64,000 bases of DNA, from contig JAWMAR010000094.1 in assembly GCA_036785375.1 (NCBI GenBank), positions 6,696,001-6,760,000 of the forward strand, read 5' to 3'. Numbering within the stretch: the stretch's first letter is position 1; the number at the start of each line of letters is the position of its first letter. Shown here piece after piece: positions 36,401-42,400 of the stretch. The position numbers are program-made. Origin of the DNA: Leucoraja ocellata. Lineage: Eukaryota.

Positions 36401-39400
36401 AATTCACCTCTAAATGACCTCCCCTTTGTTCTAAGACTGTGGCCCCTGGTTCTGGACTCACCCTACATTGGGAACATTGTTCCTGCATCTAGCTCGTCAG
36501 GTCCCTTTATAATTTTATATGCTTCTATAAGATCCTCCCTCATCCTTCTAAACTCCAGTGAATACATGCCTAGTATTTTCAATCTTTCCTCATATGACAG
36601 TCCCGCCATCCCAGGGACCAATCTCGTGAACCTACGCTGCACTGCCTCAATCACAAGAATGGCCTTCCTCAAATTAGGAGACCAAAACTGTACACAATAC
36701 TCCAGATGTGGTCTCACAAGAGCCCTATACAACTGCAGAAGAACCTCTTTACTCCTATACTGAAATCCTCTTGCTATGATGGCCAACATCCCATTAGCTT
36801 TCTTCACTGCCTGCTGTACCTGTAACCCAACTTTCAGTGACCGGTGTACATGGACACCCAGGTCTCTCTGTATTTCCCCCTTACCTAACCTAACCCCATT
36901 GAAATAATAATCTGCCCCCTTGTTTTTGCCGCCTAAGTGGATAACCTCACATTTATCTATATTATACTGTATTGTACCCAAGTCATATACGGCTTTCCCC
37001 GACGGAGATGCGACTTTTTCAACGTATCTCTTCTGCACAGCGGCTTTAACATCGTGGAGCTGGGAGAAAAGGAGGACATTAGGGATAAGTTATTTGACTT
37101 CCATCACAGTGGGGAATGTGAGGTCGCCGAAAAAACAAGATGGACGTGCTGCCCGCACTGGTGAGGACTCGGAGGGAGAGCCGAGAGTGCGGTGATCTCG
37201 GTGTTTTGCGGGGACATGCCTCCCTGAGGACATCCCGTAGTGTGCGAGTGTGGACGGGACGGCTTTCTGAAGAAGGGTTTCGGCCCGAAACGTTGCCCAT
37301 TTCCTTCGCTCCATAGATGCTGCCAAAGAGGCTGCTACACCCGCTGAGTTTCGCCAGCTTTTTTGTGTACCTACGGCTTTCTGACTGTTGGGGCGGACAG
37401 GGACTGCAGAGAGAGTGACAGCGGTCGGTACAACTCTGGTCACATCACGGTGAAGGACATTGAACTGATGGCTTTGGGTCTCCGCTTATGCTGTGGCCCT
37501 GTGGATTCTCACACACCGCTGTGGTGGCTGTTTAAGTCCACGTGTAATTTGTATGTGGTTATGTATCTTGTTGTTTTTTTGAATGACTGTTGGCAAATCA
37601 AATTCCGTGTATGTTTACATACTTGGCTAATAAATTAATTTCAATAAGGATTCGACGATATTTAATTTGCCATCAGCAGATTATAAGCGCCGGAAATCAG
37701 TCTCCACCCACACAGGTTACATAGCCCCTCCCACTCATTATATTCCGGTTAATAAAGACAACCAGAGGCTCTGGTTTCCAGATACTGGAACCCGAGCGGC
37801 TACCGGACTTTGCAGACCAACTCGAGTGGGTCTGAACCTTGGCTGCTCGCCTGTCCGGAATAATGGCCCCAGCGCTGCACCTACTGTGGCATCTGCTGCT
37901 GCTGCTCCCTACAGGTGAGACTCGGGTTGGTTCACGACTGATTATGTGCAACGAGGCTCGTTAAAATCTCCACCATCATCGGTGCTCTACGCGTCTTTAA
38001 CCTTCTGTGGGCTCCAGATCACCCAGTCGTTTCATCCGTTCATAAGTGATCGGCCATTCAATCACGGATGATCTATCTCTTTCTCCCAACCCCATTCTCC
38101 TGCTTTCTCCGCATAACCCCTGTCACCCGAACGAATCACGGATCTATCTATCTCTGCCTGAAATACATCCATTAACTTGGCCTAAACCGCGGTCTGTGGC
38201 AAACAATTCGCCTCCCTCGGACGAAAGAAACTCTTCACCATCTCATTCCTAAATGAATATATTTTATTTCTGAGGCTTTGATGAATGTTTTTATTGTGTT
38301 TTGTTGAAGGTCTCCTGGCGATTCCAGTCCTGAATCAAACCCCAACGTCCGGACCCGTCTCCGCGGCACAGACCGCCCGCTTAGAGTGTCGGATGCAGAA
38401 TGGAAATGTTGCAAGTTACAATGTATTTTGGTATCGACAGCGTCCCGGGGAGAGTCCAAAGTGGTTGGTAACGTATGAAACCGATAATGATATATACCGT
38501 GGCAGTGGGATCACAGACCGGTTCCAGCCGTCCAGAGATACTTCCGCCAACAGCTACATCCTGACCATCGGTACCGTGGAGCCCCGCGACGCCGCCGTCT
38601 ACTACTGTGCAGTGTGGGAAAATAATGTGGGATACTTCTTCAGCCCTGGGACTATCCTGGAAATAAATAGTAAGTGACTCCCTCGTTCTGTTCCCATGAA
38701 TCCCCTTGCAGTCGTTCTCATTCCCCGGCGCTCGGTGCATCCCCAGACCGGGAACGTCGGACTTGTATCTGCGCGCCGTAAAAACTTGCTCTGTCTCTAC
38801 TGGGCGCGGGAGGCCATTCTGCCCAATCGGGTCCGCTCCGTACGTCAGCGGTCGGGAGAGTATTCCCGCCAGCGGGGATTCCTGCATCGTTAACACAAGC
38901 CGCAGTTTGCGACAATCAAACGCGTTAATGTTGGGGAAACAAGGAAGACAATTTGCACGCATTCTGACGAAAGACATTGAGGAAAATACCGGGCAGCGGG
39001 TTGGGCGAGTCGGCTAGAGAGTGTAGCGGGAAAGGACGTGTTGGTGCGGGCTCGGGGTGAATCCGGGATGAACCGGTCGTTTCATCGTCTCTCCACCTCT
39101 CAATGGCTTGTGGATCCGCGCTGCGTCCCCCCGCTCCCCTTGCATCACCTGACAGGGAGTGTTGGATATCCGGAGGCCTCTCCGGTACCGGTACTTCCCG
39201 CCATAACTCCTTAAAGTGGTTGCTGCACATTGGCTCAACTGTAGATACGTTGCCTCACTGCGCCAGATTCCGCGATTCGAGCCTGACCTCGGGTGCTGTC
39301 TGTGTGGAGGTTGCAAGTTCTCCCTGGGATTCCTCCGGCTGCTCCGGTTTTCCCTCACATCCCAAAGACGTGCGGGTTTGTAGGTTAATTACCCGTCGGT

Positions 39401-42400
39401 GAATAGCCCCTGGTGTACGGGGAGTGGTTGAGAAGCGGGATATCATAGAACTAGTGTGAACGGGTGATAAATGGCCAGTGTGGACTCGGTGGGCCGAAGG
39501 ACCAGTTTCCATGCTGTATCTCCTAAAATAGCTACATTCGCAAATTCACATTCAAGCGAATTCCAGAGCTGGGGTCAGTGTGAGGCGCTGCCGACGGTCT
39601 CCATCAACTAACAATGCCTCTCTTCTCTTCCGCCCCTCTCCTCCACACAGGTAGCGAGTCTCGGAAGCCCACGCTTCTCCTGCTCCCTCCGTCTCCGGAG
39701 GAAACTGGCACGGGCTCGGCCACACTCAGCTGCCTGGTGAGCGGCTTTAAGCCGGGCCTCGTGGCGCTGCGCTGGGCCGTGGACGGCGTGGAGACGGAGA
39801 GCGGGGTGACGACGGGCGCCGTGTCCCCGGACGCCGAGCAGACGTACAGGCTGAGCAGTTACCTGCGGGTCCCCGCCGCCGCATGGGGCAAGGGCACGAG
39901 CTATTCCTGCAGCGTAGCCCATAGCTCTCTGGGCTCGCCTCTCCGCCACACCGTCTCCTCATCATCTTGCGCGAACTGAATTCGTGCCATTGGCATCGGC
40001 TGCCAATTCTCTGCTATGTTTAACACAGAGAGATGTTCACTATGGTCTGCCGCCACATTGTGCAATGTAACCTATAGCAATGTCCGCTTCTGGGAACAAC
40101 ACGAATATGTAATTATCTCAGAGATCAGTGCGAATTTCGTTGTAGATTTGTCTCCAGTTCTATGTGTCTTACTGCCTCTGTCTGTAGAATGGGGGCAGAT
40201 TCCCCTGTAGACAGTAACCGTGTTGTGATTGGATCTGGTGTAACTCAGCTCTCAATAAAGAGGAAAAACTGCAGTGTGATTCCATTGGTCTGTTTTCACT
40301 CGGATCCTCGCAGTACATTGAGGGGTTTGGGGCAAAGACGTGGCGATCAGGAGCCGCCTTACACAACTACAGCCAGTTCCGCTCAAACGGCTGATTCCGC
40401 TCCTCTTGATCAATCCCACTCTGTGTCTGCACCGACCTCTTCCCCCCTCTCCCACCTGCCGCCGTCTGCCGGTCCCTCTATTCTGCGTCCCGTCTCTCCT
40501 ACCTCCATCGCAACCTCACGTGTTTATCCTACTCCCCATTTCCCACCTATAGCCCCTCTGGATGCTAGTTGCACAATCTCGCCGCTCTTTGGTCAAATTT
40601 GTGGGAGGGGCTGGGACACACACGCGAACACACACACACACACACTTGAAACACGGAGCTGGGCTCATCCGCTCCGATCCATCCGTCAAATTTTGTCCGT
40701 TCCGTTTGTAATTCGATGCATTCCGGGCACGTTGTTCGATTCTGAAGCTGCCGACGCTGCAATATTCAACATGTCGGAGGGAGGGAAACATAATTACGTG
40801 ACAAAAAATAAGCCGAAGTCGATCGTTGGACCATTCAACTTGATCATGGTTCACCTCTCAACCTCGTACTGATTTCGCCAATTAACTCCCAGCCGTGATC
40901 TATAATTGTAAGGAAAGACGTGCAATGCCGGAGTAACATCGCTGCTCAGGCAGCATCCCTGGAGCACGTGGGTAGGTGAAAACTCGGTTAGAGACCCTTC
41001 TTCAGATTTAGCTCCGAACCTAAACGTCACCTATCCATGTTCTCCATGGATGCTATCCGACCCATTACCAATGTCTATCCTTGGTCAACTAGCATCTGCA
41101 GTTGATTGTTTGCAGTTGCCGCTATAAATGCACGAAGTTCCCAGATATCAGTAATAATGTGACGCTATCTCTCGGGAAGCATTCGCTACTGAGGACAGAG
41201 TGGGCGAACACTAAAGTACATACAAGCTGACCACCGGGTTGTCAATGTTTAAGAATGAACAGCAAATGCTGAAACATCGAAGGTAGACAAAAATGCTGGA
41301 GAAACTCAGCGGGTGAAGCAACATAGGACGTACATGGTAAATGGTAGGGAATTGAAGAATACAGTTGAACAGAGGGATCTGGGTATAACCGTGCATAGTT
41401 CCTTGAAGGTGGAATCTCATATAGATAGGGTGGTAAAGAAAGCTTTTGGTATGCTAGCCTTTATAAATCAGAGCATTGAGTATAGAAGCAGGGATATAAT
41501 GTTAAAATTGTACAAGGCATTGGTGAGACCAAATCTGGAGTATGGCGTACAATTTTGGTCGCCCAATTATAGGAAGGATGTCAACAAAATAGAGAGAGTA
41601 CAGAGTACAGATTTACTAGAATGTTGCCTGGGTTTCAACAACTAAGGTACAGAGATAGGTTGAATAAGTTAGGTCTTTATTCTCTGGAGCGCAGAAGGTT
41701 AAGGGGGGACTTGATTGAGGTCTTTAAAATGATGAGAGGGATAGACAGAGTTGATGTGGACAAGCTTTTCCCTTTGAGAATAGGGAAGATTCAAACAAGG
41801 ACATGACTTCAGAATTAAGGGACAGAAGTTTAGGGGTAATATGAGGGGGAACTTCTTTACTCAGAGAGTGGTAGCGGTGTGGAATGAGCTTCCAGTGGAA
41901 GTGGTGGAGGCAGGTTCATTGGTATAATTTAAAAATAAATTGGATAGGCATATGGATGAGAACAGAATGGAGGGTTATGGTATGAGTGCAGGCATGTGGG
42001 ACTAAGGGGAAAAAAGTTGTTCGGCACGGACTTGTAGGGCCGAGATGGCCTGTTTCCGTGCTGTAATTGTGAAATGGTTATATGGTTTCGGGTCGAGACC
42101 CTTCTTCAGACCGGTGTGAGGGTGGGGGGTGGGCGGGAAGCGGAAAGGAAGAGGCGAAGACATGCTGAGGGAGAGATGAGAAGGGGAGGAGAAAGCAGGG
42201 ACTACCTGAAATTGGAGTATAGTCGAGATAGCCATGGGAGTCAGTGGGTGTCGGTCAGTACATCTACTTACTGGCCGACATCTGCTATAAACCCACTGAC
42301 TCCCATGGCTATCTGGACTACACTTCTTCCCACCCTGCTTCCTGTAAGGACTCCATCCCCTACTCCAAATTCCTCCGTCTACGCCGGATCTGCACGCAGG

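What the first reader, a model, noticed from the sequence alone, without database searches (positions are those of the whole stretch)
37863..39979. Intact germline-joined (pre-rearranged) VJ light-chain gene
Seen: V and J are fused in one in-frame exon with a fixed 10-aa CDR3 (AVWENNVGYF) and no RSS. Leader and J-C introns are retained, so this is not a retrocopy. All splice sites and Cys/Trp residues are intact. Known: cartilaginous fish have cluster-type Ig loci, and germline-joined L genes are described, notably skate type I, attributed to RAG activity in germ cells. Inference: this is an inherited, RAG-independent antibody chain whose allelic exclusion and activation need a mechanism other than V(D)J recombination.
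Basis: partly seen in the sequence, partly recalled or inferred. Interest (0 to 1): 0.75.

Follow-up and report, generated by a model that had tools for sequence, protein, structure and literature searches.

The report
Skate germline-joined type I light-chain gene
This is an intact antibody light-chain gene of a skate whose V and J parts are already fused in the inherited DNA, a peculiarity of skate type I light chains that was described in 1995, so it is a good example of a known oddity, not a new one.

Summary
On the + strand there is a three-exon gene. The leader is 37863-37914, a single V-J exon is 38310-38670, and the C exon is 39651-39979. Both introns are GT..AG and phase 1, and AATAAA lies at 40254. 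The V-J exon is a complete V-set domain including the J-encoded strand, and the C exon is a C1-set domain. No RSS-like heptamer/nonamer pair lies in 37001-41000.

The closest named protein is "type I immunoglobulin light chain [Leucoraja erinacea]". It is 106/118 identical over V-J and 105/108 over C, with the same CDR3 length and the same unusual FSPG J motif.

The literature says that at least 89 type I clusters of Raja (Leucoraja) erinacea are all germline-joined and expressed (PMC2192082, abstract). Reviews equate type I with NS5, sigma-cart and sigma-2 (PMC5192425, PMC4279169; passages).

Not tested here: germline status from reads, expression, and how clusters are excluded from one another. 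No perfect octamer was found upstream.

One side lead came up. Gene models from other batoid orders never show the split-gene read-through seen in shark models.

The parts
37640..37862 (+). Presumed promoter and 5' UTR. TATA-like TTAATAAA at 37749-37756, and an interrupted octamer-like ATTTGcCAT near 37660-37670. No perfect octamer.
   Evidence: Read directly and motif scan. The function is inferred only.
37863..37914 (+). Leader exon (MAPALHLLWHLLLLLPT plus the first base of a Gly codon). The donor is ACAG|gtgag, phase 1.
   Evidence: The leader matches the first 17 residues of P0002 except for one residue (by eye).
37915..38309 (+). Leader intron, 395 nt, GT..AG.
38310..38670 (+). Single exon encoding V and J fused in frame. 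It is a complete V-set domain. The donor is AATA|gtaagt, phase 1.
   Evidence: Pfam V-set E 6.7e-17 covering profile positions 1-107 of 109. 106/118 identical to P0002.
38609..38638 (+). CDR3 codons (AVWENNVGYF), the fixed V-J junction. They are followed at 38639-38650 by the J motif F-S-P-G.
   Evidence: P0002 has AVWENDVGII-FSPG.
38671..39650 (+). J-C intron, 980 nt, GT..AG. It holds a dispersed-repeat fragment at 39276-39390 that is 70% identical to 28575-28700.
39651..39979 (+). Constant-region exon (C1-set domain) with the C-terminal Cys. The TGA stop is at 39977-39979.
   Evidence: Pfam C1-set E 1.4e-21. 105/108 identical to P0002.
39980..40259 (+). 3' UTR up to the only AATAAA/ATTAAA signal found in 39980-40600 (40254-40259).

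Best explanation
This is one cluster (leader, VJ, C) of the skate type I immunoglobulin light-chain family. Type I is also called NS5, sigma-cart or sigma-2. The window comes from Leucoraja erinacea or a very close relative.

Its V and J segments were joined in the germline of an ancestor, most likely by RAG acting in germ cells on a split V-RSS/RSS-J cluster like those the horn shark still has. The joined gene is now inherited as an ordinary three-exon gene.

How it most likely works:
- In B cells it is transcribed from its own promoter and spliced twice.
- It is translated into a light chain with a CDR3 fixed by the genome, so it needs no V(D)J recombination.
- Diversity comes from the many paralogous clusters, which differ mainly in their CDRs, and possibly from somatic hypermutation.
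- Which cluster a B cell uses must be set at the level of transcription or chromatin.

Shown here: the gene anatomy, its intactness, the absence of an RSS and the family membership.
Taken from the literature: germline status, expression, cluster number and the RAG-in-germ-cell origin.
Inferred: the promoter, how a cluster is chosen, and the role of hypermutation at this locus.
For: Anatomy:
- Exons, phases and splice sites.
- V-set domain including the J strand in one exon, and a C1-set domain.
- 0 RSS-like sites in 37001-41000.

Family:
- P0002, 'type I immunoglobulin light chain [Leucoraja erinacea]', is 106/118 identical over V-J and 105/108 over C.
- The next best C matches are Amblyraja 87% and Pristis 85%.
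- In the careful V tree, built without the CDR3 and J columns, the window pairs with P0002 at 100/99. The pair lies inside the batoid rows, with shark type I rows outside.

Junction:
- P0002 has the same CDR3 length (10), 7 of 10 identical residues, and the same FSPG motif.
- FSPG was seen in 1 of the 35 database proteins that the motif search matched, out of 50 examined.

Paralogue divergence:
- 6 of 25 CDR positions differ from P0002, against 6 of 93 framework positions (Fisher p 0.019).
- The CDR limits follow the IMGT convention as I recall it.

Literature:
- PMC2192082 (abstract): at least 89 type I clusters, all joined, expressed, potentially somatically mutated.
- PMC2193156 (passages): horn shark type I genes are split and the skate homologue is entirely joined; evidence for RAG-like joining in germ cells for the nurse shark NS4 genes.
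- PMC5192425 and PMC4279169 (passages): the nomenclature, and 'all joined in skates'.
Against: - No read-level or tissue-level evidence for this particular cluster was available.
- No perfect octamer lies upstream. The nearest is ATTTGTAT at 37547, plus one interrupted copy. Promoter activity is therefore unproven.
- The V-J exon is not enriched in WRCY/RGYW hotspots: 21 observed against 22.5 +/- 4.3 in shuffles. Nothing in the sequence itself points to hypermutation.
- The first Gly of the J beta-bulge motif is Ser. P0002 shares this, so it is probably tolerated.
- The V-J exon is only 90% identical to the one Leucoraja entry in the database. I could not list the 13 members of that cluster (tool unavailable). 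Whether this exact gene is among the published 89 is unknown.
- The main text of Anderson 1995 is not held. I saw only the abstract and the reference list.
Confidence: 0.9

Rival explanations
1. The gene is germline-joined but silent or decaying. It would be structurally intact so far but no longer expressed, for example because it lost promoter elements in a transposon-rich neighbourhood.
For: - No perfect octamer in 37001-40400.
- A LINE-like fragment ends about 770 nt upstream of the ATG. The ORF at 36463-37089 on the minus strand and the repeats at 36501-36972 have several copies in the window.
- Repeat fragments lie in the J-C intron.
- Lee et al. report that some germline-joined shark genes are pseudogenes or are expressed only early in life (PMC2193156, passages).
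Against: - All three exons are open.
- All four splice sites are canonical and in matching phase.
- The Cys and Trp landmarks, the C-terminal Cys and the AATAAA signal are present.
- The C exon is 97% identical to a named skate light chain.
- Anderson 1995 (abstract) states that the joined skate genes are expressed.
Confidence: 0.08
2. The assembly captured a somatic V-J rearrangement from a B cell. The true germline locus would be split, with RSSs.
For: - Nothing in the window itself can exclude this, because one sequence cannot show its own tissue origin.
- Shark relatives of this family do have split genes (PMC2193156, passages).
- 10 of 22 shark entries have broken V-to-C junctions.
Against: - Published screening of genomic libraries and genomic PCR found no unjoined type I gene in this skate (PMC2192082, abstract).
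- The CDR3 length and most of its residues match the independent entry P0002.
- 0 of 43 batoid entries show split-gene read-through.
- A consensus assembly reflects the majority of cells. Any one B-cell clone that had rearranged one of many clusters would be a tiny minority (inference).
Confidence: 0.02
3. It is a processed retrocopy of a rearranged light-chain mRNA.
For: The window is rich in reverse-transcriptase-bearing elements (RVT_1 E 1.1e-31 at 47489-49060). An RCC1-repeat ORF at 12416-13114 looks like a gene fragment away from home.
Against: - Both introns are present, 395 and 980 nt, with GT..AG ends at the positions usual for Ig genes.
- There is no poly(A) tract directly after the AATAAA region.
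Confidence: 0

Closest known systems
Type I (sigma-2 / sigma-cart / NS5) light-chain clusters of the little skate, Raja (Leucoraja) erinacea (Anderson et al. 1995, PMC2192082)
   Same: - The same leader, VJ, C layout with V and J fused and no RSS.
- 90% (V-J) and 97% (C) protein identity to the named type I chain P0002.
- The same 10-residue CDR3 frame and the same FSPG motif.
   Different: - 12 of 118 V-J residues differ from P0002, half of them in CDRs, so this is a different cluster or allele.
- I could not check whether it is one of the published 89 sequences.
Horn shark (Heterodontus francisci) type I light-chain clusters
   Same: The same isotype family: 60-65% identity over V and 66-67% over C, with the same cluster organisation.
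   Different: - Reported as split V and J with RSSs (PMC2193156 and PMC5192425, passages).
- 7 of 11 Heterodontus entries fetched here have a broken V-to-C junction.
Nurse shark NS5 germline-joined gene, the partner of the neonatal IgM1gj heavy chain
   Same: The same isotype (sigma-2), also VJ-joined in frame in the germline, giving a predetermined binding site (PMC4279169 and PMC5192425, passages).
   Different: - In the nurse shark it is one joined gene among four NS5 loci and is used early in life.
- In skates the whole, much larger family is joined.
- No nurse shark sequence was among the hits compared here.
Type II (lambda / NS3) light chains of elasmobranchs
   Same: Germline-joined VJ in all species studied, and expressed (PMC5192425, PMC4279169 and PMC2193156, passages).
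   Different: It is a different isotype. None of the 65 proteins fetched here is named type II, and I made no direct comparison.
Nurse shark NS4 (kappa / type III) germline-joined genes (Lee et al. 2000, PMC2193156)
   Same: The junctions were fused in germ cells. That paper gives evidence for RAG-like processing with hairpin intermediates.
   Different: - It is a different isotype.
- Only about 10% of the NS4 genes are joined, and the joining events are recent.
- The skate family is entirely joined, so the event or events are presumably older.

Membership tests
Skate type I (sigma-2/sigma-cart/NS5) germline-joined light-chain cluster | Leader, variable and constant exons of an Ig light chain (V-set plus C1-set) in one compact cluster | tested here: met
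   - Exons at 37863-37914, 38310-38670 and 39651-39979.
- Pfam V-set E 6.7e-17 and C1-set E 1.4e-21.
- tblastn of both exons against all 64 kb found no second V or C: all other hits had E above 0.8.
Skate type I (sigma-2/sigma-cart/NS5) germline-joined light-chain cluster | Sequence affinity to named type I chains rather than to other isotypes | tested here: met
   - The best hit for both exons is 'type I immunoglobulin light chain [Leucoraja erinacea]', at 90% and 97% identity.
- It is sister to the window at 100/99 in the careful V tree.
- Limit: no named kappa, lambda or sigma references were in the tree, so the four-isotype placement rests on the name of the hit and on the reviews.
Skate type I (sigma-2/sigma-cart/NS5) germline-joined light-chain cluster | V and J contiguous in one exon, in frame, with no RSS | tested here: met
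   - The open frame runs through YYC, the CDR3 and FSPGTILEINS to the donor site.
- The V-set profile is covered to position 107 of 109.
- 0 RSS-like pairs in 37001-41000.
Skate type I (sigma-2/sigma-cart/NS5) germline-joined light-chain cluster | The joined configuration is present in germline or non-lymphoid DNA | not testable with these tools
   - No reads and no eukaryote genome collection were available.
- It is supported only by PMC2192082 (abstract) and by the shared junction with P0002.
Skate type I (sigma-2/sigma-cart/NS5) germline-joined light-chain cluster | Expressed in B cells, possibly hypermutated | not testable with these tools
   - No transcript data.
- The hotspot count in the exon is not above shuffles.
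- The literature claim is for the family, not for this cluster.
Conventional rearranging (split) V-J-C light-chain cluster | V followed by heptamer-spacer-nonamer and a separate J preceded by an RSS | tested here: not met
   One search found no RSS. Searches show V and J in one exon.
Processed retrocopy of a rearranged transcript | Absence of introns | tested here: not met
   There are two GT..AG introns of 395 and 980 nt.

The most novel reading that the evidence does not exclude
The joined state may not be a skate peculiarity. It may be ancestral to all batoids: sigma-2 V and J would have been fused once, or a few times, in the batoid stem lineage, and every ray, skate, sawfish and electric-ray sigma-2 gene would descend from that fusion.

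One junction type would then have been kept for more than one order's worth of evolution, which would point to a selected, innate-like binding site. It is the 10-residue CDR3 VWE[N/S]xVG[Y/W][F/V], found in this window, in P0002 and in a stingray/manta clade.

Evidence so far:
- 0 of 43 batoid entries against 10 of 22 shark entries show split-gene read-through at the V end.
- The AU test does not reject uniting the skate pair with the myliobatiform YGPGT clade (p 0.64).
- Against this, the careful tree does not recover that union.
- CDR3 lengths of 8, 10 and 11 coexist among batoids.
- Gene models can be built from rearranged transcripts, so contiguity in a model is not proof of a joined gene.
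Probability: 0.2. Interest if true: 0.45.

Novelty: already known. Interest (0 to 1): 0.15.

Why it matters
Germline-joined antibody genes are the classic exception to the rule that antigen-receptor genes are assembled somatically. They are also used as evidence that RAG has acted in germ cells.

This window adds no new principle. It does give a clean, complete genomic example with its context. There is one cluster of about 3.9 kb, from 37376 to 41273, that holds no window-internal repeats apart from one fragment in the J-C intron. It stands alone in 64 kb of transposon-rich DNA, with no second V or C.

That makes it a convenient unit for asking two open questions:
- What promoter and enhancer elements drive such a gene?
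- How does a B cell pick one of many pre-joined clusters?

Tried and rejected
- **Cluster members.** Listing the 13 members of P0002's cluster was not possible, because the tool answered that its database is switched off.
- **V-J exon search at 'near' lengths.** It gave 1 hit among 4 candidates and added nothing.
- **PDB sequence search with the C exon.** It returned thousands of antibody chains ranked by summed multi-domain scores, which is no help for the isotype.
- **Rfam.** 0 matches over the whole window at gathering thresholds, so the repeat in the J-C intron has no Rfam family.
- **AID hotspots.** There is no enrichment in the V-J exon, so I dropped this as evidence.
- **Octamer search.** No perfect copy was found.
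- **V tree with CDR3 and J included (quick).** It left the batoid rows as a polytomy.
- **Careful tree without those columns.** P0046 and P0050 were left out as long or partial rows. The tree places the skate pair beside all 30 myliobatiform rows with weak support (88/73).
- **AU test.** Holding the skate pair together with the YGPGT clade was not rejected (p 0.64). I named that group after seeing the CDR3s, and I ran no control grouping, so this shows little.
- **PMC2569000.** This review is not held.
- **Anderson 1995.** Only the abstract and the reference list are held. No supplements were consulted.
- **Genomic DNA of relatives.** No eukaryote genome or read collection was open, so it could not be read.
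- **Spliced model.** I left the joined leader-VJ-C model out on purpose. Each exon was translated and searched separately.
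Full report
**What is there.** Reading 37500-40400 and translating each exon on its own gives a three-exon gene on the + strand.
- The leader exon is 37863-37914 (MAPALHLLWHLLLLLPT plus one base) and ends at ACAG|gtgag.
- After a 395-nt intron, the second exon starts behind ttgaag at 38310 and runs to AATA|gtaagt at 38670.
- After a 980-nt intron, the third exon starts behind cacacag at 39651 and ends with TGA at 39977-39979.
- Both introns are phase 1, as is usual for immunoglobulin genes (established knowledge).
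- The only AATAAA or ATTAAA in 39980-40600 is at 40254.
- Every search used one exon.

**V and J are one exon.** The second exon is open from before the acceptor to past the donor.
- Its translation carries the first Cys, the invariant Trp (FWYRQ) and YYC. The CDR3 AVWENNVGYF (nt 38609-38638) follows, and then FSPGTILEINS.
- Pfam V-set matches residues 9-117 to profile positions 1-107 of 109 (E 6.7e-17), so the J-encoded strand is included.
- The third exon is a C1-set domain (E 1.4e-21).
- A scan for heptamer/nonamer pairs with 12- or 23-type spacers found none in 37001-41000. It found one weak pair in the whole window, at 5372 on the minus strand, far from the gene. Shuffles of the 4-kb region gave 0.33 relaxed hits.
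- The two introns rule out a retrocopy.

**Which gene it is.** The V-J exon found 49 proteins among 217 candidates, and the C exon found 63 among 1306.
- All hits are elasmobranch light chains.
- The best hit in both searches is P0002, 'type I immunoglobulin light chain [Leucoraja erinacea]'. It is 106/118 identical over V-J and 105/108 over C.
- The next best C matches are Amblyraja radiata (87%) and Pristis pectinata (85%).
- P0002 has a nearly identical leader, a CDR3 of the same length (AVWENDVGII) and the same FSPG motif.
- Of the 50 proteins examined, the junction pattern matched 35. Only P0002 has Ser in place of the first Gly.
- In a careful maximum-likelihood tree of the V region the window pairs with P0002 at 100/99. 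The tree has 49 rows, the CDR3 and J columns were removed, and P0046 and P0050 were left out. The pair sits within the batoid rows, and the shark rows lie outside.
- The source is therefore a skate, Leucoraja erinacea or a close relative.

**What the literature says.**
- Anderson et al. 1995 (PMC2192082; only the abstract and reference list are held) characterised at least 89 type I clusters in Raja erinacea. [quoted passage not shown] They also report that differences concentrate in the CDRs.
- Lee et al. 2000 (PMC2193156, passages) state that horn shark type I genes are split while the skate homologue is entirely joined. For the nurse shark NS4 genes they give evidence that joining came from RAG-like activity in germ cells.
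- They also note that the nurse shark's joined sigma-2 chain pairs with the germline-joined neonatal IgM1gj heavy chain.

**Agreement with those reports.** Against P0002, 6 of 25 CDR positions differ, compared with 6 of 93 framework positions (Fisher p 0.019). The CDR limits follow the IMGT convention as I recall it. The window thus holds a paralogue or allele that behaves as Anderson et al. describe for the family.

**Context.**
- tblastn of both exons against the 64 kb found no other V or C. All other hits had E above 0.8.
- The cluster is flanked by dispersed repeats. The stretch 36501-36972 has several copies in the window at 77-93% identity. The stretch from 41274 onward has copies at 88-97%.
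- The window is full of retroelement ORFs. Pfam gives RVT_1 with E 1.1e-31 at 47489-49060 and a DDE_3 transposase fragment at 55752-56375.
- The gene is a small island, which suits the idea of an autonomous minilocus (inference).

**Weak points.**
- No perfect octamer lies upstream. ATTTGTAT at 37547 and an interrupted copy near 37660 are the nearest. A TATA-like TTAATAAA lies at 37749.
- The V-J exon has no excess of WRCY/RGYW motifs: 21 against 22.5 +/- 4.3 in shuffles.
- Expression, hypermutation and germline status of this particular cluster were not testable.

**Rivals.**
- A captured somatic rearrangement is very unlikely, for three reasons. The published genomic screens found no unjoined gene. 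The junction is shared with an independent entry. A consensus assembly reflects the majority of cells (inference).
- A silent or decaying joined gene cannot be excluded. No defect was found in the exons or splice sites, and the only pointer to it is the missing octamer.
- A retrocopy is excluded by the introns.

**A side lead.** I looked at the V-to-C junction in all 65 fetched proteins.
- 41 of 43 batoid entries run V-CDR3-J straight into C, and none shows read-through after the V end. They come from Leucoraja, Amblyraja, two Mobula species, Hemitrygon, Hypanus, Pristis and Narcine. Of the other two, P0036 has no C match and P0056 is truncated.
- 10 of 22 shark entries have broken junctions: 7 from Heterodontus, 1 from Stegostoma and 2 from Chiloscyllium.
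- Several of those read '..YIHS' or '..YHS' after the V end. A heptamer CAC AGT G would translate that way. This is my inference, because I did not see the DNA.
- The contrast gives Fisher p of about 4e-6. However, the rows are paralogues, and 7 of the 10 broken ones come from one species. Gene models can also be built from rearranged transcripts.
- A 10-residue CDR3 of the form VWE[N/S]xVG[Y/W][F/V] is shared by the skate pair and part of a myliobatiform clade that has YGPGT.
- The careful tree does not unite the two groups. An AU test does not reject uniting them (p 0.64; the group was named after seeing the data, and no control grouping was run).
- This may mean that sigma-2 is joined throughout the batoids. 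It needs the genomic DNA of those loci.

**Verdict.** The finding is a textbook-level known exception, so its interest is low.

Noticed in passing
proteins P0001-P0065: 0 of 43 batoid gene products show split-gene read-through at the V end, against 10 of 22 shark ones. Several shark models read '..YIHS' or '..YHS', as a translated RSS heptamer would. Type I/sigma-2 may therefore be germline-joined in all batoid orders, not only in skates.
   Followed up: partly
window 38639-38650; P0002: The J motif is F-S-P-G in the window and in the Leucoraja entry. The other 34 proteins that the junction pattern matched, of 50 examined, keep Gly at that position.
   Followed up: partly
proteins P0010, P0011, P0013, P0018, P0022, P0027, P0052, P0053, P0057: A stingray/manta clade with a YGPGT J motif carries a 10-residue CDR3 (for example RVWESGVGYF) that resembles the skate CDR3. 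Other members of the same clade have 8 residues. Whether this is shared ancestry or convergence is unresolved.
   Followed up: partly
window 39276-39390 (J-C intron) and 28575-28700: A dispersed-repeat fragment, about 70% identical between the two places, sits inside the J-C intron. It has no Rfam family.
   Followed up: partly
window 37333-37375 and 41278-41320: A 43-nt inverted repeat (88%) brackets the Ig cluster. The same element also occurs at about 27474-27563, 30321-30361 and 44648-44740, so it is probably a common repeat end and not something specific to the cluster.
   Followed up: no
window 12416-13114 (-): An open frame of 232 residues with RCC1 repeats (Pfam RCC1 E 6.8e-32, RCC1-like domain E 5.9e-36). 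It includes a run of lysines. It could be an exon or a stray fragment of an RCC1-domain (HERC-like) gene.
   Followed up: partly
window 20491-22250 (-), 25993-26772 (+), 46733-49060 (+), 51105-52612 (+), 58160-59458 (+): Several LINE-type reverse-transcriptase ORFs, some nearly identical to one another (RVT_1 E 1.1e-31 for 47489-49060). The window is largely transposon-derived.
   Followed up: partly
window 55752-56375 (-): A fragment of a DDE transposase (Pfam DDE_3, E 1e-10), Tc1/mariner-like by its look.
   Followed up: partly
window 18124-19877 (+): A long low-complexity stretch that reads as Pro/Ser/Leu-rich frames on one strand and Gly/Arg/Glu-rich frames on the other. It is a simple repeat and not a gene, judged by eye.
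   Followed up: no
window 6058-6794 and N runs 6476-6640, 23768-23967: A TG/CA-type microsatellite surrounds the first N run. Both N runs were left as they are.
   Followed up: no
window 38381-39013 (-): A 210-residue stop-free frame runs antisense to the V-J exon and the J-C intron. I did not search it, and it is probably a by-product of composition.
   Followed up: no
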